The notes beneath the pieces were generated by a model that was not told the origin of the DNA, searched no databases, and was given only the letters and a program-made list of their open reading frames with translations. Shown here piece by piece: positions 1 to 31,112 of a DNA stretch of 31,112 nucleotides (its first letter is position 1; every line of letters starts with the position of its first letter). The DNA is from Chiloscyllium plagiosum (Eukaryota): assembly GCF_004010195.1 (NCBI RefSeq), contig NC_057718.1:83090215-83121326 (forward strand), read 5' to 3'. The position numbers were made by a program, and so were the translations under genes.

Positions 1-1174
1 CTGTGCTATGATTAAATGTGTTAGTCGTCACTACTTTTCTGAAGGACCTAGCATCTCAGTTGTATGCCTTAACAAAAAATGTATCCCTACTATCACTGGA
101 ATTCAAACTCTATGTGGAGAGGGTAACAACACACACCTTCACTATGATACCCCTAATGGCACCAATATTTTCCCAGTTATTGGAGGGGAAGAATCATTTT
201 GGGATGTTGACCATGTTTCTTATCAAGAAACTCACCTCATTAGTACTGGATGATTTTCACCCTCGGCACCCAGGGCCAAATTATGTAATCATGGATTATC
301 CACATACCCCAGGAAGTCACAAAGGTAGGACTGCATCTTTTTGTGAAGGTCCCTCTATTGCCTATGCTAAACCTGGATATTATTCTTTTCAGTTATAATA
401 AGGCAGCTAACTACCTTGTCCTGAATAGAGCAAGTAGTCCTCATGCCGTAGCTGTAGGAACACTATTTCCAACTCCTGTTCCCTGCCCAAGTACCTGGCA
501 ACGAGATCATAATTCCCTTTTTAAACATAGAGTTTCTGCTGACTTCTGTGCAGAATGGAAGAATCCAAAGATCATATCAAGAAGTAAAACACATTCATTG
601 GCAGATGCAGCGCTTAGTGTTCTTTCATTAGGAGAGTCCTTAAGAATTATTCGTCATCAAAACCCTAATTATCTCATTGGTGGACTCACCATTTTGGGAA
701 ATGAGACAACTGCTGCCTTGATAGAAGTTAGAAATGCTCTCAGAATTGCGCCTATTTACCCAACAAAACCGATTACATACTTGCGAAGGAAGGTGGATTT
801 TGCATGGTAATTAAAGGAAAATGCATTATGAGGGTCACTGATCTTTTCGAAAACATTACTAGACATATTGATAATATTCACACTTTTGTCAACTAAATGA
901 ACAAAGGTGCGGGATGTGAAGATTGGGGTTTGGCTCATAGTACAACAGATTAATTAATATGTCTTTGTATCGTGCTATTGTTTTAATTGGTGTTTTTGTT
1001 GGTATTGCTATAGTTAAGGGTATTATTGCTAAAATATTAACTTCTATTGACAATATTGGTTCCAATCTGAAAATGCTTCTTCTTTACTCAAATAATGATG
1101 AGGAAACATCATTGGCTGCCCTTGATTCCTCTTCAGAGGAAGAAGAAGTATGGCAGTCTTTTGGATTGGATTAA
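1..1174 (+). pseudogene. env: Endogenous retrovirus env gene, 3' part (SU end plus TM), frameshifted with in-frame stops
   Basis: Joining frames gives a heptad region GLTILGNETTAAL, an immunosuppressive-domain-like SELRLFTQQNR (740-772) and DYILAKEGGFCMVIKGKCI (771-827, CX6C), then NIT glycosylation site, a hydrophobic membrane anchor (about 960-1030) and an acidic tail. It lies directly upstream of a PPT and LTR. Confidence 0.85.
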
Positions 1175-1864: not shown

Positions 1865-2477
1865 GTTGAACATCAATCTGTGAAACCTTGCTTTATATGG
1901 CCATAATACATGGTAACAATGAGCTCCTGGTCAACCAGAACTGTGTGGTAGCAACAGCGAAACAGCTTGCCCATGTTAATAGACTTCATTGACAAGTTCT
2001 CGTTTCAAGTGACATCCAGACAGAGAGAGAAAACATGCCATCAAAATGAAGGGGAAATCCAGAATCCATAAGAATTTGAACATTTGCTTAAGATTCAGAC
2101 AAGCTCAACAGAGAGCCCACTGTGATTGAGAATTCCTATTTGTCTAACTTGTCACAGGCTGTCCAGTGGTTTTCCAAGTGCATACGAAATATGTAAAATC
2201 TGAAAAATGGATGAGAGTTGCATTCTGAAGAAGTTCAACTTGTGCTAATATTATTGAAGTTCTTGCACAAGCTCGAACCATCAGGAACATTAACTTAACA
2301 GAGCTTATGATGTAATTAGAGATTCTGTATTCCAATACAGTATTGATAGTCCCCCAAATACCAGAAAAGATTTACAAGGATGTTACCAGGGTTGGAGGAT
2401 TTGAGTTATACAGAGAGGCTGAACAGGCTGGGGCTGTTTTCCCTGCAATGTCAGAGGGTGAGGAAGGACCTTATAGA

Positions 2478-2759
2478 AGGAGACAGTGAGGTCTGCAGAT
2501 GCTGGAGATCAGAGATGGAAATGTGTTGCTGGAAAAGCGCAGCAGGTCAGGCAGCATCTAGGGAACAGGAGAATCGACGTTTCGGGCATTAGCCCTTCTT
2601 CAGGAAAGAAGTTCCTGAAGTTCTTGCACAAACTTCTTCAGAATGCAACTCTCATCCATTCTTTCCTGAAGAAGGGCTAATGCCCGAAACGTCGATTCTC
2701 CTGTTCCCTAGATGCTGCCTGACCTGCTGCGCTTTTCCAGCAACACATTTCCATCATCG
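2478..2759. mobile_element. Penelope-terminus-derived fold-back mini-element with perfect 97-bp inverted arms
   Basis: Arms 2514-2610 and 2659-2755 are exact reverse complements. 13-bp TSD AGGACCTTATAGA (2465-2477, 2760-2772). Arm resembles the terminus of the Penelope copy at 30420-30505. Confidence 0.85.
2664..2695 (+). ncRNA. Putative minimal type I hammerhead ribozyme (mirror copy on the minus strand at 2574-2605)
   Basis: CTGAAGA (2666-2672), stem II GGGC-TAAT-GCCC, GAAA (2686-2689), palindromic ACGT helix III, GTC cleavage triplet. Helix I is only about 2 bp. Confidence 0.6.
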
Positions 2760-3596
2760 AGGACCTTATAGAGGTTTACAAAATCATGAGGGGCATGGAT
2801 AGGATAACAGACAGAGTCTTTTCCCTGGGGTGGGGAAGTCCAGAATTAGAGGGCATAGGTTTAGGGCGAGAGGGGAAAGATATAAAAGAGACCTAAGGGG
2901 CAACGTTTTCACACAGAGGGTGGTACGTGTATGGAGGAAGTTGCGGAGGCTGGTACAATTGAAACATTTAAAAGGCATTTGGATGGGTATATGAATAGGA
3001 AGGGTTTGGAGGGACATGGGCCGGGTGCTGGTAGGTGAGACTAGATTGGGTTGGGATATCTGGACGAGTTGGACCGAAGGATCTGTTTCCATGCTGTACA
3101 TCTCTATGATTCTATGCCTTAAGTTCCCACGCAGTGCAGTCGGAGGAGGAGCACACGGAGCTGTAAGTATAAACTAATTTTCCTCATGGATGCACAGCCT
3201 TGCTTCTAGGGAGCAGCACACGGAATAACTGAAACCAAACTGAAAAAGTGATGTCAGGAAAACTGTGACCTGATTGGCTGGTAGGAAATCTGTTCCTGAT
3301 TTAAATAAAGTCACTCCAAAACAATCTAAATTAAGTAATTGAGGATTAACTAGCTAATAAATTAACTAACTTAGTACAGATGACTAGGCAAATGTGCTGC
3401 AGCTGTATGATGTGGGAGTTGGCTGATCCCATTGTGAACTGCAGTGACCATATCTGCAGCAAGTGTTGGTTGCTGGAGGCACTCCGGCTCAGAATTGATG
3501 AGCTGAAATCTGAGCTTCAAACACTGCAGCACATCTGGGAAGGAGAGAGTTACCTGGACGCTTTATTTCAGGAGGCTGTCCCACATGAAAGATTAA

Positions 3597-3851: not shown

Positions 3852-4531
3852 ACAGGTACTTGCTCCTTGTGTGGATGAGGATCAGAGCTGTAGGGAGGAT
3901 GAACAAACTGACCATGGTACTGTGGTACAGGAGGCCATTCAAGAGGAGGCAGCAAAAAGACAAGTGGTAGTTGTAGGGGATTCTATAATTAGGGAATAGA
4001 TAGTATCCTTTGTAAGCAGGATTGGGAGTCCACATGGTATGTTGTCTACCAGGGTGTGGGACATTGCTGACCGGCTTGAAAGGATATTGGAAAGGGAAGG
4101 GGAGGATCCAGTTATGATCCACGTTGGGACAAACAATACAGGCAAGACTAGGAAAGAGGACTTGTTTAGGGATTATCAGGAACTAGGAATTACAGGTACT
4201 TGCTCCTTGTGTGGATCAGGATCAGAGCTGTAGGGAGGATGAACAAACTGACCATGGTACTGTGGTACAGGAGGCCATTCAAGAGGAGGCAGCAAAAAGA
4301 CAAGTGGTAGTTGTAGGGGATTCTATTATTAGGGAATAGATAGTATCCTTTGTAAGCAGGATTGGGAGTCCACATGGTATGTTGTCTACCAGGGTGTGGG
4401 ACATTGCTGACCGGCTTGAAAGGATATTGGAAAGGGAAGGGGAGGATCCAGTTATGATCCACGTTGGGACAAACAATACAGGCAAGACTAGGAAAGAGGA
4501 CTTGTTTAGGGATTATCAGGAACTAGGAATT
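3852..4531. repeat. 340-bp tandem duplication inside CR1 ORF1
   Basis: 3852-4191 and 4192-4531 differ at two positions that I could find (GGATG/GGATC, TATAA/TATTA). Confidence 0.95.
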
Positions 4532-7329
4532 AAATTAAAAAGAGCAGGTCCTCAAGTGTTATACTGCCCGAGCCACGTCCAAATTGGCATAGAATCATGA
4601 GAATAAGGGAAGTAAACACGTGGCTAAAAGAGTGGTGTGGGAAAGAGAGGCTCCCTCTCATGGGGCACTGGCATCAGTATTGGAACAGGAGAGATCTGTA
4701 CTGGGATGTTTCTACCTAAACTGAACTGGGACCGGTGTTCTAGCGAAAAGAATAAATAGAGTGGCCAACAGGACTTTAAACTAGGAAGTGAGGTGGGGCG
4801 CAGGGGGAAAGGGAAATCTCCATGAAGTATAATGACCAATGGGAAGTAAAGTTGCACGTTAGCATCCATGGGGGTGTTTTCAACTGCATTGAAAAATATG
4901 GAAAAAAAAATGAAAGAAGAACTGATGGGAGGTGATTAAAGTCTCCAGCACACAAATAGGACAGAGTGAGAAGGGTTAGGAATTAAACTTCAAACACACT
5001 GGATAAATGAATAACAATGAAAAGAGGGATAGTCAATGCAGGACTGAAGGTGTTGTAACTGAATATGCGCATTATACGAAATAAGATAGATGAGCTTGTG
5101 ATGCAGATTGAAATTGGCAGGTATGATGTGGTGGACATCACAAAGATACGTCTGCAAGGGGATCAGGTCCGGGAGCTAAACATCTGAGGATATACATCCT
5201 ATCAGAAAGACAGACAGAGGGGGTGGGGTTCTCTTGCTGGTGAAAAATGAAACTAAATCAATAGCAATAAAAGAAACAGGATCAGATGATGTAGAACCTG
5301 TGTGGGTAGAGTTGAGGAATCCTAAAGATAAAAAAAAAGTATGGAAGTTATCTACAGGCGTCCAAACAGTAGTCAGGATTTGAAGCACAACATACACCAG
5401 GAGATAGAAAAGGCGTGTAAGAAAGGCAAAGTTAAAGTGATCATGGGGGATTTAAATATGCAGGTGGACTGGGAAAATCAGCTTGATAGCGAATTGCAAG
5501 AAAAGGAATTTGTGGCATGTCTGAGAGATGGCTTTGGAGCAGCTTGTGGTGGAGTCCACTAGGGAACAGATAATTCTGGATTTAGTGTTGTGCAATGAGA
5601 CAGACTTGATAAGGGAGCTTAAAATGAAGGAACCCTTAGGAGGCAGTGATCATAATACAATAGAATTTACTCTGCAATTTGAGAAGGAGAAGGTGGAATC
5701 AGATGGAATGGTATTACAGCTGAATAAAGGCAACTTCAGAGGCATGAGGGAGGAACTGACCAGAATTGATTGGGAGAGGAGCACAGCAGCAAAGACAGTG
5801 GAACAGCAACGGCAGGAGTTTCTGGGAGTAAGTTGGAAGACACAGTAAAAATTCATCACAAGGAAAAGGAAGCATACTAAAGAGAGGATGAGGCAACCAT
5901 GGGTGACTAGGGAAGTCAGGGATAGCATAAAAGCAAAAGAGAAAGCATATAATGTGGCGAAAGGCAGTGGTAAGTCAGAGGATTGGGGAGCCTGCAAAGA
6001 CCAAAAGACGACAATGAAGAAAGAAATAAAGGAGGGAGAAGATTAAATATGAGGATAAGCTAGCTGGTAGTATTAGGAAAGATTGCAGCAATTTCTTTAG
6101 ATATCTAAAGGACAAAAGAGGGAAAAGAGGACATTGGGGCACTGGAAAATGATGCTGAAGAACTCATAATGGGGAACAAAGAAATAGCTGAGGAACTGAA
6201 TAAGTACCTTGTGGCAGTCTTCATGGTGGAAGACACAAGTAACATCGCAAAACTTCGAGAGAGTCCGGGGAGAGAAATCAGTAGGGTGGTCATCACCGAG
6301 GAGAAGGTGCTAGAAAAGCTGAACGGGTCTGAAAGTGGATAAATCACCTGGACCAGATGGGCTACACCCTAGAGTTCTGAAGGAGATAGCTGAAGAGATA
6401 GTGAAGGCTCTCGTAGTGATCATTCAGGAATCACTGGAGTTAGGGAAGGTCCGAGAGGATTGGAAAATTGCTAATGTAATCTCTCTGTTTCAGAAGGAAG
6501 CCAGGCAAAAGATGGGATGGCCAATTAGCCTGTCCTCAGTCATTGGTAAGATTTTGGAGTCCATTGAGAACAATCAAGGGGAGGTCATGCCTTACAAATC
6601 TGTTAGAATTCTTTGGAGGACATAACAATAGGGTTAGATCAAGGACAGCCAATGGATATATCTATCTGGACTTCAAGAAGGCCTTTGATAAAGTGCCTTA
6701 GGAGACTGCTGAATAAGGGCCCATTGTCAGAGAGGCAAGCTACTAGCATGGATAGAAGCTTGGCTGTCTGGCAGAAAGCAGAGAGTGGGGATAAATGGGT
6801 CCTTCTCAGGATGACAGCTGGTGTTCCACAACGGTCAGTGTTGGGACCACAACCTTTCACTTTATAAATTAATGATCTGGATGAAGCAACTGAGGGCATT
6901 CTGGCTACATTTACAGATGATACAAAGATAGGTGGAGGGGCAAGTAGTATTCAGGTGGTGGGCAGGCCACAGTAATTTTTGGATAGGTTAGTAGTGTGGG
7001 CAAAGAAGTGGCAGATGAAATACAACGTGGGAAAGTGTGAGAAAATGCACTTTGGTAGGAAGAATAGAGTTGTGGACTCATTTTCTAAATGGGGAGAAAA
7101 TTCAGAAGTCTTAAGTGCAAAAGGGAGTTGGGAGTTAGAGTCCAGAATTCTCTTAAGGTAAACTTGCAGGTTGAGTCAGTAGTTAGGAAGGCAAATACAA
7201 TGTTGGCATTCATCTCAAGAGGATTAGAATACGAAAGCAGGGATGTACATCTGAGGTTTAAAAGGCTCTAGTCAGACCACATATTAGCATTGTAAGCAAT
7301 TTTGGACCCCATACCTTAGGAAAGATGTA

Positions 7330-7965
7330 CAGAGGAACCTCGATTATCTGAATATTAATTATCCGAAATTCGGATCATCCAAAGGAGATCTTGAGGTCCG
7401 ACAGAAACATTACATTAAAGACGTGTTTCCAACAGTGATCACGTCTTTTGTTTAGAGTGATTAAACAGAGAAGAAGGGCTTATGCCAGAAACGTCGACTC
7501 TCCTGCTCCCTGAATGCTGCCTGACCTGCTGCGCTTCTCCAGCAACACATTTTCAGCACCATCTCCAAATGACTAACCTCCCACCCTCTTTCTCTCTCTC
7601 TCTCTCCACCCCCACACTTTCCCTGGAGTTCTACAGAGGCATGTACCCTAAAACCCCCTTCTCCAGATAATCTCTCTAACATTGTCCTGTATAGGGCATA
7701 GGTGAAACCTGTCAAAAAGTTGCAGTAAAAAGTTGTGTGTGTGTGGGCACACGAGTGCTATTTGGAGACTTACCCCACAAAGGCAGTTGCAGCAGCAGTC
7801 TTGTTGTTGGTGTACAGTCCGGCTGCCCCGGAGAGGGGGCAGGGAATGGAGACGGAACTGGGGGGTTGAGGGTGGTGTTGGGGGGACTGGGGCAGTGTTC
7901 AACAGGGGCAGTGTTGGACAGGGGCAGTGCTGGACAGGGCTGGGGGCGGTGTTGGATGGGGCAGG
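7330..7965. mobile_element. Tc1/mariner-pogo (Tigger-like) non-autonomous DNA transposon, left end; right boundary uncertain
   Basis: TA followed by CAGAGGAACCTCGATTATC, matching the TIR of the MITE at 21704-21858. It truncates the CR1. No right TIR found. Confidence 0.5.
7469..7567 (+). mobile_element. Single arm of the Penelope-derived hammerhead repeat (degenerate)
   Basis: GAAGAAGGGCTTATGCCAGAAACGTCGACTCTCCTGCT...CAGCAACACATTT is homologous to 2668-2750. The CT of the core is missing. Confidence 0.8.
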
Positions 7966-9892: not shown

Positions 9893-10865
9893 CTACAAGA
9901 GAAACATTGGAATTCATACAATGCAAAACAGGTCAAACATTAGATTTAGTCCTTTCAGATTCTTTAAACTTGACTGACTTGGAACAGCACCTTGCAGGTT
10001 TCAACTGGAGCACACCAAGTGAAATAGGGAGGTTTTTCCTTAATCCTACTTAGATTTTTGTAAAAAGTGAAGGGCATCAGGAAGCTTTATAGTTTTGCAT
10101 CATAAACTTGTGCTCCTCAAATGTATTATCTGAGAGAAGTCTAGCCATCCTACCTTTTCCATGTACTGTATAAGGTGTACATCTGGCAAGCAGATACACC
10201 ATTCCTTAAAGCATGTAGGTAAGGGAATAGAAAATGGAAAATTGTACCCTTACCAGAATGAGAGCAGAGACCAGCATGGAGACAGCAAGTACCAGAGTGG
10301 AGCTGAGGCCTTCAGGTTTGGAGCCCAGCATAGTCTACAGACTTGGCCCAGACTGTCTGGAGGCTCGGTGCTGGCATGGACTTGGTGAAAAGACCAAACG
10401 TAGAGTACTTTTTAACAAGAAAACTTATTATTCTTATGCTGAACTTTTCATGAGTCAAGTCTGTAACACATACTTAAGCATTCTATACTTAAGTACCCAG
10501 TATCTAAAGTGACACCAAAGCAGCAACATTAGACTTCAACTCATTCGAGTTCACATAACAATAAAGGCTAATTCAATTCAGGTCCTGCAGACTTGTCTAC
10601 CCTAATGCTTCAAACATCTTTAGATTCAATGGGCACACAGACAAAAACATCTGCCAGAGTAGACAAAATCAGAAGCTTAGTGTGGGAGATTGCTCAGAAC
10701 ACTACCATCTGGAATTTCTCTCCCTCCTACAGCCAGAATCTGAGGGGCAGATTCAGGTTCAAAATCACTTCATCAGCCAGTACCCTCACATTGGGGGAAG
10801 ATCCAGCCACCCTGCATTAGTTGCGGTGTCATTCAGTCAGATGGCCTAACACAGGAAGGTCTCAC

Positions 10866-10990
10866 ATCAGTTCTGAAGAGTGACTCAAAACATTAACTCT
10901 TCTTTCTCCTCATAGATGCTGCTTAGTTTTGCCAGAATTTTCTGCTTTTGGTTTCAGATTGCCAGCATCTGCAATTCTTTGTTTTATATT
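10866..10990 (+). mobile_element. Old Penelope-terminus-like repeat with degenerate hammerhead motif
   Basis: AGTT-CTGAAGA-GTGACTC-AAAAC-ATT-AACT (helix I AGTT/AACT kept, GAAA mutated), followed by GATGCTGC...CCAGCATCTGCA. Confidence 0.55.
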
Positions 10991-11080
10991 AATATAGGAA
11001 GGCTCTGGTTGCAAATTGGAAGTGTGTCTTTGGGAGTTGTAGAGGCTGTATCCCAAATCAGAAAACAGGTAGACTGAAAT

Positions 11081-11205
11081 CAGTGCTTAAAAATGTGTTG
11101 CTGGAAAAGCGCAGCAGGTCAGGCAGTATCAAAGGAACAGGAGAATCAACATTTCAGGCATAAGCCCTTCTTCTCTAGCATCTGCAGTCCTCACTTTCTC
11201 CTTCC
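11081..11205. mobile_element. Fold-back mini-element copy lacking most of the second arm
   Basis: One arm homologous to 2520-2600 joined to the inverted tail AGCATCTGCAGTCCTCACT. TSD AGACTGAAAT (11071-11080, 11206-11215). Confidence 0.8.
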
Positions 11206-11699
11206 AGACTGAAATGAGTGGCAAATTAAAAGGGAGAGGGGCCTAGAGATGGTTCAGCCAGGCAGAAGCTAAAAAGAAATTAAAGGCAGCATTCATCAGA
11301 AATGCTGCACTACCTGTCCCTCATGTGAAAGTTTAGGTCAAGCAATACATTTGACTACAAATTCAGACAGTTGTCCACACACAACTTTACAGGAAAAGTG
11401 AAATTTTAAGCAAATTTCATCTTAGTACAAATAGCAACAGAACCACTACAATGACAATGGGATTTGCATGCAAGGTGAGGCATTAAGTTTTCTTACAAAT
11501 CTTTGAGAAAATGAGGAAGGATAAAATAGAACACAATCAGTAGGATTCACTGTGGGTCAAGTTCTTCCAAGCCTTTTGGAAGCCGATTCTGAGATGGGGC
11601 TTGTAAAGGTGAATTCTAAAAAAGGTATGGGACCACAGTACCAAAAAAAGGTCATTTTTGAACTGACTAGGCTGTCAAAAACCTACTGACCTATGACGT

Positions 11700-23594: not shown

Positions 23595-23962
23595 CCTTCC
23601 TCAGAACTTGGAAAAAGGCCAGTTTTTTCAGCTTTTGCTTAAACTAGGTAACAGGGGAATTTAAGGTGAAAGGGACTAAATGTGCAAATTTGACAGCACT
23701 TTTCCAGCTTGACTTTGCACACAATCTCTACACTCTCTCTGGACACAAGCATTCCGTTATGAACTTAACATCTCAATCACACAGGTCCCATCCTAAACTG
23801 TCACTCATGATCTTTACCCCACCCTGCACCTGGTATAAGATAGTAGGAACCCTTCTCCAGTTTACTGCTGCAAAAAAAAAATCTTCCAGTGTTTAATTAT
23901 ATCAGATGTTCCAGGTCTGTTCAATAATTATTTTTTCAAATATGGCTGCCCATCCTCCTGGA

Positions 23963-24132
23963 GGGGAAGCAAGGACCACAGATGCTGGAAAAGTACAGCA
24001 GGTCAGGCAGCATCCATGGAGCAGGAAAAAAAAATCAACATTTCAGGCATAAGGCCTTCATCAAGGCTTATGCCTGAAATGTCAGTTTTCCTGCTCCGTG
24101 GATGCTGTCTGACCTGATGTGCTTTTCCTGCT
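23963..24132. mobile_element. Older fold-back mini-element (same family as 2478-2759) in cystatin intron 1
   Basis: Imperfect inverted arms around a centre near 24055-24064. TSD CATCCT(C/T)CTGGA (23951-23962, 24133-24144). Confidence 0.85.
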
Positions 24133-24559
24133 CATCCTTCTGGATGATCCCAGAAAGAAAGTTCAACCACAGCGACAAGCAACCAAATAATCATCCCTCC
24201 CCCTCATTTTGTAAATTCAGTGGGGAGAAAAATCCTGTTTCGTTAACAGGACAATTGGCGGTAGGAGTCATATGGTGAAACTTCCAGAAGGAAGTTTAGC
24301 TGGAGCTAGCAATTCCTCTACCAAGAGATTTCTTTTTAATTGGATGTTGCTATTGATCAATTTCTTTTGCCGCAGTGCACAAACTACTTCAAAGATACTT
24401 TGTTGATAGTGAAGCTAATGATTTGGTCCCTACCACAAACCCTGTTCACTGACTAGCATTTCAAAAATGAGGAATGACAGATCATTCACAACCTCTGCTA
24501 CATGAGCCAGCAAGCTTCACACAAACCTTTCTTCAGTTTATTCATACTGTTTTTTTTCT

Positions 24560-25561: not shown

Positions 25562-27660
25562 AGCTGGAAAAGTACAGCGGGTAAGGCAGCGTTCGAGTCG
25601 ACTGTTTGGGCATAAGGCCTTCAGTTTAGATTTCCTACAATTTGGAGACAGTCCCAACCAGTCTACACTGACCCTCCGAAGAGTAACCCACCCAGACCCC
25701 ATTACCCTCTGACTAATGCACCTAACACTATGGGACAATTGAGCATGGCCAATTCACCTGACCTGCACAGCTTTGGACTGTGAAAGGAAACAACGAAGAA
25801 ACCCACGCAGACACGGGGAGAATGTGCAAACTCCACACAGACAGTCAGCCAAAGCAGGAATCAAATCTGGGTCCCTGGTACTGCGAGGCAACTGTGCTAA
25901 TCACTGAGCCACCATGCTGCCCCTAATCCCCTTCATCAGGAATGTGGAGCAGGAAAGGGGCTGAGAGATAAATAGAGGGGGGAGGGGGGGGTAGGATAGT
26001 TGGGGGGATAATTAGGATAGGACCATGGCGAGGGTGGACCCCATAGGTGGGGAGGAAGATGGACAAGTGAAAAGGACGGTGCTGAGTTGAAGGGCTGGAT
26101 TTGGGATGAGCTGGAGGCCAGGGGAGGTTTGGGAAACTAGTGAAGTCAGTGTTGATGCCATGTGGTTGAAGGGTCTCATTTGCCGAGTGGCTTTGATTTG
26201 ACAGTGGAGAAGGCCCAGGATTTGCATGTCCTTGAGGGAGTGGGAATGGGAGAGGGAGTTGAAGTGGTTGGCCACAGGGCAGTGAGGTTATTTAGTGCAT
26301 GTGTCCCAGCGATGCTCTCTGAAACATTCCATGAGTTGGCATCCTGTCTCCCCAACTTGGAGGAGACCACATTGAGAGCAACAGACTCAGTAGATAAGGT
26401 GGATGGATGTGCAGGAAAATCTCTGCTGTGAAAAGATCTTTTGGGTCCGTGGATGGAGGTGAGGGGGCAGTTGTGGATGCAGGTTTTACAGCTCATGTGG
26501 CGGCAAAGGAAGATGCTGAGTGTGGAGGATGGGTTGATGGGGGAGGAACAAAGGAGTCACAGAGGGAATGGTCTCTGTGGAACGCAAATAGGGATGGGGA
26601 GGGAAATAAAACTTTGGTGGTGGGGTCTGAGTGTAGGTGGCGGAAATGGTGACGTATCTAGAGATTAGTGGGGTGAGAGGTAAGGACTGGAAGGTTCAAT
26701 CCTTGTTGTGGTTGAAGAGGTAGGGTTCAGGGGCAGAGGTTAGGAAGTGGAGGAGATGTGCTGGAGGGCATTATTGGTCATGTGGGAGAGGAAATTGCAG
26801 TCTTTGAAATAGAAGGTCATCTGGAATGCCTTGGAGTGGAATTGCAGAGGTGGAGTAATTGGGAGTAAGGGATCGTGTTTTTACAGGGGTCCGGGTGGAG
26901 TGGTTGGGAAGGGGTTGCAGTCTAGGTAGCTGTGGGAGTCGGTAGGTTTGAAATAGATGTCTGTGTTGAGTCAGTGGCCGGAGACGGAGAGGTACAGGAA
27001 GGAGAGGGAGGTGTCGAATATTGGCAATGTAAACTTGAGGTCAGAGTGGAAGGTATTGGTGAAGTTGATTCAACTTCCTCTTGGGAGCACAAGGCAGCAC
27101 TAATGCAGTCATCGATGTTGCAGAGGTAAAGGTGAGGGATGGTGCCGGTGTAACTATGAAAGATGGTCTGTTCCACATACCCTACAAAGAGACAGGCGTA
27201 GATGGCTTTTCCACATACCCCACAAAGAGACAGGCCATGCGGGTGCCCATGGCTACCCTTCTGTCTGTAGGAAGTGGGAGGATTCAGAGAAGAAGTTATT
27301 GAGGATGGGGACCAGTTCTGTCAATTGCATTAGTGTGCCAGTGGAAGGAGACTGGTTAGGTCGACAGAAGTGGAAGAAACAGAGGACTTGTAGGCCTTCA
27401 CCGTGGGGGATGGACATATATAGGGACTGGATGTCCATGATGAAGATGAGGTGTTGGGGGCCAGGGATTCCAAAATCATGGAGGTGGCTGGAGGGCATGG
27501 TTAGTATCCCAAACATATATGGGGAGTTCCTGAACCAACGGGAACAGGACAGAGTCGAGATATGAGGAGATGAGTTTGGTGGGGCAGGAGCAGATGGAGA
27601 CAATAGGTTGACTAGAGCAATCAGGTTTGGGAATGGGTTGAGTTTGATAGGGGAGAATGT
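25562..27660 (-). mobile_element. Degenerate Penelope-like retroelement (RT, GIY-YIG, terminal hammerhead repeat)
   Basis: RT motifs FIMDIQSLYMSIPH, LNNF.....HFLQ..GVAMGT, NIDD. GIY-YIG C-terminal ANHFNS..HS. Terminal repeat at 25562-25623 and 25930-25943. Confidence 0.88.
25624..25929 (-). mobile_element. V-SINE (HE1-like) inserted in the Penelope hammerhead
   Basis: Reverse-complement homolog of 11956-12286. TSD CCTTCA (25618-25623, 25930-25935). Confidence 0.9.
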
Positions 27661-27767
27661 CATGATGACTTCATCACAGGAACATTTGTGCCAAGAGAAG
27701 GGGCTGTTTGTAAAGTCAACCCCGAAAACAATGCTGCCACATTCCAGAAAATAAGCAGCTAAAGCAC

Positions 27768-28600
27768 ATAGTCATAGAGATTTACAGCACGGAAACAGAC
27801 CCTTCGGTCAAACTGTTCCATGTCAACCAGGTACCCTAACCTAATCGAGTCCCATTTGGTGCATATCCCTCTAAATCCTTCCCATTCATTTACCCATCCA
27901 AATGCATTTTAAATGTTGTAATTCTACCAGTCTCCAACACTTCCTCTGTTAGCCCATTCCACATACACACCACTATCTGCTTGAAAAAGTTGCCCCTTAG
28001 GACCGTTTAAATTTTTTCCCCTCTCACTCTAAACCTATGCCTACTTCTGGATTCCCCCACACTAGAAAAAAGACCTTGTCTATTTACCATATCCATGCCC
28101 CTCATGATTTTATAATCCTCCATAAGGTCATCCCTCAGCCTCTGGCATTACAGGGAAAACAGCCCCAGCCTAATCAAGCCTCTCCCCCTAGCTCAAATCC
28201 TCCAACCCTGGCAACATCTTTGTAAATCTTTTCTGAACCCTTTCAAGTTTCACAATATCCTTCCAATAGGAGGGAGACCAGCATTACACACGATATTCCA
28301 AAAGTGGCCTAACCAATGTCTTGTACAGCCGCAATATGACCTCCCAACTCCTTACTCAGTGCTCTGACTAATAAAGGAAAGCATACCAAATTTATTCTTC
28401 ACTATCCCATCTACCTGCAACTCCACTTTCAAGGAACTATGAACTTGCACTCCAAGGTCTCTTTGTTCAGCAACACTCCCCAGGACTTTACCATTAAGCT
28501 TATAAGTCCTGGTCTGATTTGCCTTTGCAAAATGCAGCACCTCATATTTATCTAAATTAAACTCCATCTGTCACTCCTCAGCCCATTGGCCCATCTGATC
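27768..28600 (-). mobile_element. CR1 3' fragment
   Basis: Minus ORF MEFNLDKYEVLHF...QRDLGVQVHSSLKV and CR1 3' UTR. Confidence 0.9.
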
Positions 28601-30415: not shown

Positions 30416-31112
30416 GGATCAGAGGTGCTGGAAGAGCACAGCAATTCAGACAGCATCCGAGGACAGGCAAAATCGACGTTTCGGGCAAAAGCCCTTCATC
30501 AGGAATAAAGGCAGAGAGCCTGAAGCGTGGAGAGATAAGCTAGAGGAGGGTGGGGGTGGGGATAGAGTAGCATAGAGTACAATAGGTGAGTGGGGGAGGA
30601 GATGAAGGTGATAGGTCAGGGAGGAGAGGGTGGAGTGGATAGGTGGAAAAGAAGCTGGGCAGGTCGGACAAGTCCGGACAGGTCAAGGGGACAGTGCGGA
30701 GCTGCAAGTTTGAAACTAGGATGAGGTGGGGGAAGGGGAAATGAGGAAACTGTTAAAATCCACATTGATGCCCTGGGGTTGAAGTGTTCCAAGGCGGAAG
30801 ATGAGGCGTTCTTCCTCCAGGCATCTGGTGGTGAGGGAGTGGCGGTGAAGGAGGCCCAGGACTTCCATGTCCTCGGCAGAGTGGGAGGGAAAGTTGAAAT
30901 GTTGGGCCACAGGGCGGTGTGGTTGATTGGTGCGGGTGTCCCGGAGATGTTCCCTAAAGCGCTCTGCTAGGAGGCACCCAGTCTCCCCAATGTAGAGGAG
31001 ACCGCATCGGGAGCAACGGATACAATAAATGACATTAGTGGATGTGCAGGTAAAACTTTGATGGATGTGGAAAGCTCCTTTGGGGCCTTGGATAGAAGTG
31101 AGGGAGGAGGTG
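30416..31112 (-). mobile_element. Young Penelope-like element 3' end, runs off the window
   Basis: Uninterrupted frame 31111-30716: FTCTSTNVIYCIRCSRCGLLYIGETG...ERFREH...AQHFN...EERLIFRLGTLQPQGIN (GIY-YIG endonuclease), then 3' UTR and hammerhead-bearing terminus. Confidence 0.93.
30473..30504 (-). ncRNA. Putative minimal hammerhead ribozyme in the Penelope terminus
   Basis: Minus strand reads CTGATGA-A-GGGC-TTTT-GCCC-GAAA-CGTC. Helix I is weak. Confidence 0.62.

What the first reader, a model, noticed from the sequence alone, without database searches (positions are those of the whole stretch)
2206..2772. Fold-back element whose loop is a chimera copied from neighbouring host DNA
Seen: the 48-bp spacer (2611-2658) between perfect 97-bp arms is not element sequence. 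2616-2631 (TGAAGTTCTTGCACAA) is an exact direct copy of 2255-2270, and 2631-2660 is the exact reverse complement of 2206-2235. Both donors lie 200-270 bp upstream of the 13-bp TSD. The donor contains CTGAAGAAG (2225-2233), identical to the hammerhead core of the arm, and the spacer begins with a false start of the return arm (TTCCTGAAG). Inference: during integration, synthesis switched template by microhomology onto both strands of local DNA before folding back, so the insertion carries a locus-specific loop in constant ribozyme-bearing arms. This could be a by-product of Penelope integration or polymerase-theta-type repair. More speculatively, it is a scaffold-plus-local-spacer RNA.
Basis: partly seen in the sequence, partly recalled or inferred. 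Interest (0 to 1): 0.85.

Follow-up and report, generated by a model that had tools for sequence, protein, structure and literature searches.

The report
Penelope hairpin with flank-copied seam
A short mirror-image stub of a Penelope-like jumping gene has its 48-base centre built from exact copies of DNA 200-260 bases upstream plus a few of its own bases, most likely a one-off repair scar left when two separately made halves were joined rather than a functional guide-like loop.

Summary
The insert is the pLTR end of a Penelope-like element (PLE): minimal hammerhead motif, 36-bp one-sided tail, 13-bp TSD, inside a CR1-like LINE. All 48 spacer bases tile as short templated pieces (4+6+11+27). 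Corrections: only 93 of the 97 arm bases match the family, family arms vary in length, and the spacer is not propagated (no raw reads across it against thousands on the arms). Read as two cDNA ends meeting, every flank piece comes from one strand, and the donor holds the only 8-nt-or-longer complement to the cDNA end within 1 kb, a likely tether. Best reading: twin-primed PLE stub sealed by polymerase-theta-like patchwork synthesis (0.5); single-end fold-back 0.25. None of four runs showed the spacer, so the locus is unconfirmed. No genome was held, so family enrichment is untested. The scan earlier noted twin-primed hairpins and six flank-copied fillers on other DNA of this genome (unchecked AI notes). 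Known layout plus known scar type.

The parts
2206..2235 (+). Donor A (30 bp), copied into 2631-2660; holds CTGAAGAAG (2225-2233), complementary to the cDNA end and a likely tether
2228..2236 (+). Donor B (9 bp), identical to 2606-2614
2255..2270 (+). Donor C (16 bp), identical to 2616-2631
2362..3116 (+). Target: 3' piece of a CR1-like LINE, split by the insertion (CR1 label recalled; high-copy depth on both sides)
   Evidence: depth; joint 2466->2762 in 427 X23 reads from uninterrupted family copies
2465..2477 (+). Left TSD copy (13 bp); carries two letters that differ from the LINE majority and recur in the right copy
   Evidence: (2465 G in 115 of 150 reads, 2466 T in 139 of 144)
2478..2513 (-). 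36-bp one-sided PLE tail; 2478 is the family's main end
   Evidence: (loose ends before 2478/2479 in 3637 and 1139 X24 reads); PMC8557442 and PMC11167929
2514..2606 (-). Left arm, element-derived part (93 bp), with the hammerhead motif at 2576-2603 on the minus strand
2607..2610 (+). AGAA: arm bases that are not family sequence (the family continues TGAG), mirrored at 2659-2662
   Evidence: 12,665 X23 loose ends; 3679 X24 loose ends
2611..2658 (+). 48-bp patchwork filler: 4 nt from donor B, 6 nt copied from the arm itself, 11 nt from donor C, 27 nt from donor A
2663..2755 (+). Right arm, element-derived part (93 bp), tail-less. Minimal hammerhead motif CUGAAGA 2666-2672, stem II 2674-2685, GAAA 2686-2689, predicted cut after 2693
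   Evidence: its outer end matches the family's tail-less end
2756..2759 (+). 4 extra bases (ATCG) between arm and TSD; slippage at priming or end-joining filler
   Evidence: context; origin inferred
2760..2772 (+). Right TSD copy (13 bp)

Best explanation
This is a 282-bp hairpin-shaped stub of a Penelope-like retroelement between 13-bp target duplications, whose 48-bp centre consists of exact short copies of DNA 195-259 bp upstream plus six bases of the arm itself, likely written once by a microhomology-primed polymerase while two separately primed cDNA halves were being joined. Inferred steps: (1) The element's endonuclease cut both strands 13 bp apart. (2) Each 3' end primed reverse transcription of the pLTR RNA, one at the tail start (2478) and one at the second internal start (about 2514), and both stopped at CAGGAA. 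(3) The two identical, non-complementary ends could not anneal. Their CTTCTTCAG likely paired with the top strand at 2225-2233 and freed the bottom strand. (4) The left end made three short primed extensions (flank, own arm, flank), the right end made one, and they were joined over 1 nt at 2631. Polymerase theta is the likeliest writer; the element's own reverse transcriptase is not excluded. The loop has no function of its own.
For: Shown: exact tiling of 48 of 48 bases with overlaps of 1-5 nt. One-sided 36-bp tail and TSD match the described PLE layout (PMC8557442 and PMC3846280 passages). A related pLTR at 30418 (83% over 81 bp) lies at the 3' end of a GIY-YIG frame (PF01541, E 1.5e-4, 22.4 bits against a cut-off of 22.6). 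The right arm ends where many family copies end: loose ends at 2750 (3022 X24 reads) and 2519 (1748) turn random after about 6 family letters, and the window copies at 7470 and 11091 end at the same base. At 11091-11202 a tail-only piece of about 30 bp is inverted against a tail-less arm it does not contain, inside a 10-bp TSD; fold-back alone cannot make that. 2606->2663 with no letters between has the highest contig depth among the fold-back joints shown for X1 (22 contigs) and X4 (17), and 55 reads in X23. A purified PLE protein cuts and extends both strands and starts at two internal sites that bound the tail (PMC11167929). In the two-ended reading all flank pieces come from one strand. 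The 9-nt complement to the cDNA end is the only match of 8 nt or more within 1 kb of the TSD, and 2 of 458 window tiles reach 9, one being the donor. Repeated 3-30-bp templated pieces are the described polymerase-theta scar (PMC7165422 passages).
Against: Both arms share the non-family AGAA at their inner ends. Fold-back explains this directly. Two ends need one inserted G against donor A (GAAAAA versus GAAAGAA), later arm correction, or a variant source RNA. Donors lie 195-259 bp from the cut, farther than typical polymerase-theta donors (within about 30 bp, PMC7165422) or L1 templated insertions (within 15 bp, 10.1101/2024.08.27.596794). The tether was picked after the fact and rests on one locus. 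The 11091 copy could be a fold-back with a later deletion. The spacer was seen in 0 of 4 runs, so the locus is not independently confirmed. No enzyme is identified by any search.
Confidence: 0.5

Rival explanations
1. Single-end fold-back: one cDNA left the RNA at 2606, hopped on the bottom strand, its own arm, the bottom strand again and then the top strand of the flank, snapped back over TT/AA at 2609-2610 and copied itself out to 2514.
For: Explains the shared non-family AGAA with no extra step. Both arms share three minority letters (2515/2754, 2559/2710, 2590/2679), though one RNA template also gives that. 2612-2620 shows that a snap-back did occur. Snap-back onto cDNA or nearby target DNA is documented for R2 insertions (PMC11371274 passages), and self-priming was proposed for PLE palindromes (PMC3846280).
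Against: It needs both flank strands as templates and three jumps over 1-2 nt. It must stop at the family's fixed tail-less site unless the endonuclease trims there (suggested in PMC8557442). It does not explain the copy at 11091-11202 without a later deletion.
Confidence: 0.25
2. Later repair: the stub first inserted as a spacer-less palindrome, which later broke at its centre as a cruciform and was resealed with templated filler.
For: Spacer-less 2606->2663 joints are common in the family. The ends would be the same CAGGAA ends as in the best reading. Centre breakage of long palindromes is recalled knowledge; PMC3855049 was seen as a search listing only.
Against: It needs two events in a short time: arms, TSD and donor copies show 0 differences over 165 compared sites (P 0.011 at the 2.7% distance of run X5). 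No spacer-less allele of this locus was seen.
Confidence: 0.12
3. Assembly or library artefact: the centre of a hard-to-read hairpin was filled with chimeric local sequence.
For: No contig of X4, X17 or X5 and no X24 read crosses 2623-2630; X4's depth from 2631 on equals the donor's own echo. No 100-bp piece over the spacer is among the longest pieces listed. Donors lie within a library insert size.
Against: The pieces join over 1-5 nt, shorter than assembler overlaps (general knowledge). The TSD repeats two locus-specific letters. The runs differ from the window by 0.8% (X1) and 2.7% (X5) in the flank, so a young insertion may be absent from them. Contigs drop variants, and the raw reads cover unique DNA only about 0.3-fold.
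Confidence: 0.08
4. Programmed capture: the family uses constant ribozyme-bearing arms to carry locus-specific loops as a scaffold-plus-spacer RNA.
For: The whole insert folds as a 97-bp stem with a structured loop. Unchecked scan notes list six other flank-copied fillers in PLE copies of this genome.
Against: Arm ends vary across the family, and most of the letters-between rows shown are 1-11 nt (only the best-supported rows are shown). The spacer has at most about 6-10 copies against tens of thousands for the arms. The 2 other two-armed copies in the window have no foreign loop. The hammerhead fold is not better than shuffles (z -0.33) and Rfam finds no hammerhead.
Confidence: 0.03

Closest known systems
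Complex insertions of endonuclease-positive Penelope-like elements (inverted 5'-truncated pLTR, 30-40-bp tail at one end, TSD; PMC8557442, PMC3846280, PMC11167929)
   Same: Head-to-head pLTR arms, 36-bp one-sided tail, 13-bp TSD, minimal hammerhead motif; the arm ends match two internal start sites.
   Different: No ORF in this copy, and the inversion seam holds a patchwork copied from the flank. The passages read describe palindromes at the seam and long captured host spacers between pLTRs (Pen1, Pen3a), not short local patchwork.
Polymerase-theta templated insertions (TINS; PMC7165422) and complex MMB-TI events (PMC8421209)
   Same: Several short exact copies of flanking DNA, direct and inverted, chained by 1-5-nt microhomologies.
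   Different: Donors lie 195-259 bp from the cut rather than within about 30 bp; the broken ends are cDNA ends; polymerase-theta dependence was not tested.
L1 twin priming and L1 templated insertions (10.1101/2024.08.27.596794, PMC11702581); R2 snap-back junctions (PMC11371274)
   Same: Two primed ends joined with microhomology, preserved TSD, local DNA copied into a retroelement insertion, snap-back on cDNA.
   Different: In L1 the inverted parts are mostly non-overlapping and templates lie within 15 bp of the site (22 cases among about 3,600 insertions); here both arms copy the same 93 nt.
Non-LTR retrozymes (10.64898/2026.07.22.740005)
   Same: Hammerhead-bearing, ORF-less, related to PLE pLTRs.
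   Different: Retrozymes are tandem direct repeats; this is a single inverted pair.

Membership tests
EN+ Penelope-like element insertion | Inverted, 5'-truncated pLTR copy | tested here: met
   93-bp element-derived arms head to head
EN+ Penelope-like element insertion | 30-40-bp tail at one end only | tested here: met
   36 bp, 2478-2513, left arm only
EN+ Penelope-like element insertion | Target site duplication | tested here: met
   13/13 bp, with two locus-specific letters repeated
EN+ Penelope-like element insertion | Hammerhead motif in the pLTR | tested here: inconclusive
   Core letters and stem II present; Rfam no match; stem I not evident in the fold; PLE motifs are described as minimal (PMC6155905 passage); cleavage untested
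EN+ Penelope-like element insertion | Family linked to an RT plus GIY-YIG ORF | tested here: inconclusive
   A related pLTR (83% over 81 bp) at 30418 adjoins a GIY-YIG frame, E 1.5e-4, just under Pfam's cut-off; no RT hit for it; this subfamily's own ORF was not seen
Polymerase-theta templated insertion (TINS) | Inserted pieces of 3-30 bp identical to flanking DNA, in several rounds | tested here: met
   4, 6, 11 and 27 new bases tile the spacer
Polymerase-theta templated insertion (TINS) | Donors typically within about 30 bp of the break | tested here: not met
   Flank donors lie 195-259 bp from the TSD; only the 6-nt arm-derived piece is end-proximal
Polymerase-theta templated insertion (TINS) | Dependence on POLQ | not testable with these tools
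   Needs a knockout insertion assay
Non-LTR retrozyme | Tandem direct repeats of a hammerhead unit | tested here: not met
   Single inverted pair
Scaffold-plus-spacer (guide-like) RNA element | Constant scaffold with spacers that are propagated or expressed | tested here: not met
   Variable arm ends and no spacer reads in X24; expression was not tested

The most novel reading that the evidence does not exclude
PLE inverted ends arise by two cDNAs meeting head to head, and when they cannot anneal their free ends search the neighbouring duplex by homology: the element's own hammerhead-core sequence pairs with a chance match hundreds of bases away, opens the duplex, and both ends copy the displaced strand. 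Fillers across tens of thousands of copies would then map a homology-guided end-joining step of PLE integration, with donors centred on complements of the cDNA end and copied from one strand.
Probability: 0.25. Interest if true: 0.6.

Novelty: new member of a known kind. Interest (0 to 1): 0.3.

Why it matters
How PLEs make their inverted ends is an open question (PMC8557442, PMC11167929). A seam whose every base can be traced records the order and strand of the last steps, and it offers two countable tests across a family of tens of thousands of copies: strand of the donors, and homology between donor and cDNA end. As a single locus it is an ordinary repair scar in a known insertion layout, with no sign of function.

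Tried and rejected
Whole-genome survey: no genome is held for this window, so the family-wide enrichment test was not run. Collection scans for family copies with flanks found none in metagenome, viral or prokaryote genome contigs. A shorter pattern gave 48 metagenome loci; none aligned over more than 30 nt, so all 48 were dropped as chance. Rfam gave no hammerhead; its best hit, mir-1791 at 23994-24122, is the stem of another fold-back copy and is below the gathering score. Read laying did not resolve an empty allele of this locus, because family reads fill the joint tables (15 of 1658 and 15 of 585 joints shown). The donor region shows no Pfam family in the three plus-strand frames, so no host gene or transcript template was identified. 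The stretch before the 7470 copy has no exact local donor of 10 nt or more within 2 kb. A sequence look-up of the spacer in earlier findings found nothing. Literature: 'Penelope' + 'retrotransposon' + 'templated insertion' + 'inverted' gave 1 paper, where the term means RNA-templated; 'Penelope' + 'twin priming' gave 3 listings not about PLE integration by title; the library lacks most subscription papers. No RNA run was searched.

Full report
Observation. The 13-bp TSD lies at 2465-2477 and 2760-2772. None of 20,000 shuffles of the spacer reached its 28-nt match to the 450 bp upstream of the TSD (best 18). Of 629 window tiles, 21 belong to this insertion, its donors or a tandem duplication; of the other 608, 2 reach a 16-nt local match and none exceeds it. 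A third match was missed: 2606-2614 equals 2228-2236.

What the arms are. The left arm carries 36 more bases (2478-2513) than the right. An inverted truncated pLTR, a 30-40-bp tail at one end and a TSD are the described layout of endonuclease-positive Penelope-like elements (PMC8557442 passages; PMC3846280 passages). The arm holds a minimal hammerhead motif (CUGAAGA, stem II, GAAA, GUC). Rfam does not detect it, its fold is no better than shuffles (z -0.33), and PLE hammerheads are described as minimal (PMC6155905 passage). A related pLTR at 30418 (83% over 81 bp) sits at the 3' end of a GIY-YIG frame (E 1.5e-4, 22.4 bits, cut-off 22.6; 1 of 3 frames). The target is the 3' piece of a high-copy LINE. 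The CR1 label and the shark-like origin are recalled or come from unchecked scan notes; no call tested them. Both TSD copies carry two letters that differ from the LINE majority (115 of 150 and 139 of 144 X23 reads), which fits a true duplication of this site.

What public reads show. The family is very large. Summed arm depth in raw run X24 is about 18,000 at 95% likeness, against about 0.3 on unique flank in the sister run X23 (9 bins), roughly 36,000-63,000 arm copies (a rough estimate). After 2606 the family continues TGAGG (12,665 X23 loose ends, agreement 0.66; 3679 in X24, 0.71), so only 93 bp of each arm is element and the inner AGAA/TTCT is not. Fold-back joints occur at many positions. 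2606->2663 with nothing between has the highest contig depth among those shown for X1 and X4. Only 15 of 1658 and 15 of 585 joints, and 12 of 800 and 12 of 584 letters-between rows, are shown, ranked by support, so locus-specific fillers would be hidden and their frequency cannot be read from these tables. The spacer itself has depth 0 at 2623-2646 in X17, X5 and X24. In X4 the depth starts at 2631 and equals the echo of the donor. The spacer is therefore not propagated (at most about 6-10 copies), but it is also not confirmed in any of the 4 runs. The runs with flank contigs differ from the window by 0.8% (X1) and 2.7% (X5), and 165 compared sites within the locus show no difference (P 0.28 and 0.011; arm homogenisation would weaken this, P 0.59 and 0.16 without the arms). 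A young, perhaps polymorphic insertion fits; an artefact is not excluded.

How the seam was likely made. Written as two ends growing towards each other, the left end gains GTTC (5-nt overlap with 2228-2232), then CTGAAG (3-nt snap-back on the arm), then 11 nt of 2260-2270 (5-nt overlap). The right end gains 27 nt of donor A (2-nt overlap, or 6 of 7 with one bulge), and the two meet over 1 nt at 2631. The sum is 48 of 48. All flank pieces then read in the top-strand sense, so only the bottom strand served as template. The cDNA end holds CTTCTTCAG, complementary to 2225-2233. This is the only match of 8 nt or more to the last 15 element bases within 1 kb of the TSD, and 2 of 458 tiles of the window reach 9 nt, one being the donor. 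Pairing there would free the bottom strand and explain why the donors cluster 195-259 bp away; this is inference from one locus, chosen after the fact.

Twin priming or fold-back. For twin priming: the right arm stops at the family's tail-less end (3022 and 1748 X24 loose ends; the copies at 7470 and 11091 stop at the same base). The copy at 11091-11202 has a tail-only piece inverted against an arm it does not contain, inside a 10-bp TSD. A purified PLE protein cuts and extends both strands and starts at two sites that bound the tail (PMC11167929, parts 1-2 of 4 of the text read). For fold-back: both arms share the non-family AGAA, which twin priming explains only by one inserted G, later arm correction (PMC3820800 and PMC8604942, search listings only) or a variant RNA. 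Snap-back junctions are known for R2 (PMC11371274 passages). My reading moved from fold-back to twin priming after the scan notes, and I tested it as above. I give 0.5 to twin priming with patchwork joining, 0.25 to fold-back, 0.12 to later repair of a spacer-less palindrome, 0.08 to an artefact and 0.03 to a functional scaffold-spacer RNA.

Comparison with what is known. Chains of short exact flank copies joined by microhomology are the described scar of polymerase theta (PMC7165422 passages) and of complex MMB-TI events (PMC8421209 passages). The distance criterion of typical TINS (about 30 bp) is not met, so this works like a TINS but is not filed as one. Local DNA inside retroelement insertions is known for L1 (22 cases, 10.1101/2024.08.27.596794 passages; PMC11702581 passages). 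It is not a retrozyme (10.64898/2026.07.22.740005 passages), having no tandem units. My searches found no paper on templated seams or twin priming in PLEs, within a library that lacks most subscription papers. Supplements of PMC11167929 (junction figures S1, S2) and of the L1 preprint (Fig. S4d) were not seen and may bear on this.

Recurrence. In the window, 0 of the 2 other two-armed copies (11091, 23960) has a foreign loop. Earlier scan notes list six other PLE copies of this genome with flank-copied fillers and several twin-priming readings. They are unchecked leads, and I could not test the fillers because no genome is held.

Verdict. A real-looking, young, ORF-less PLE stub with a fully traceable repair seam. 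The layout and the scar type are known; the single-strand reading and the homology tether are the new and testable points. Interest 0.3.

Noticed in passing
window 3852-4532: Tandem duplication of a 340-bp unit at 99.4% identity inside a LINE 5' region; a recent duplication or an assembly overlap.
   Followed up: no
window 11071-11215: PLE copy with a tail-only piece of about 30 bp inverted against a tail-less arm, inside a 10-bp TSD; bears on twin priming.
   Followed up: partly
window 23945-24146: Older two-armed PLE copy with no foreign spacer, a shortened tail side and a likely decayed 14-bp TSD; its stem gives the weak Rfam mir-1791 match.
   Followed up: partly
window 7384-7567: Single PLE arm preceded by about 65 bp of unexplained sequence with a 9-bp inverted repeat and a possible decayed tail; no exact donor of 10 nt or more within 2 kb.
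   Followed up: partly
window 30418-31112 and 25900-27800 (minus strand): PLE bodies: a nearly open GIY-YIG frame next to a pLTR at the window end, and a decayed RT plus GIY-YIG-like copy that gave no Pfam hit.
   Followed up: partly
window 2601-2606 equivalents at 7470, 11173, 24063: This copy and three others in the window end within about 5 bases of the 5' edge of the hammerhead core, not at its predicted cut site.
   Followed up: partly
window 12-810 and 1690-2360: Decayed coding-looking frames on the plus strand, the second holding the donors; no Pfam family.
   Followed up: partly
window 10840-10990: An older, different PLE-like end with a hammerhead-like core on the plus strand (seen in the context printed).
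   Followed up: no
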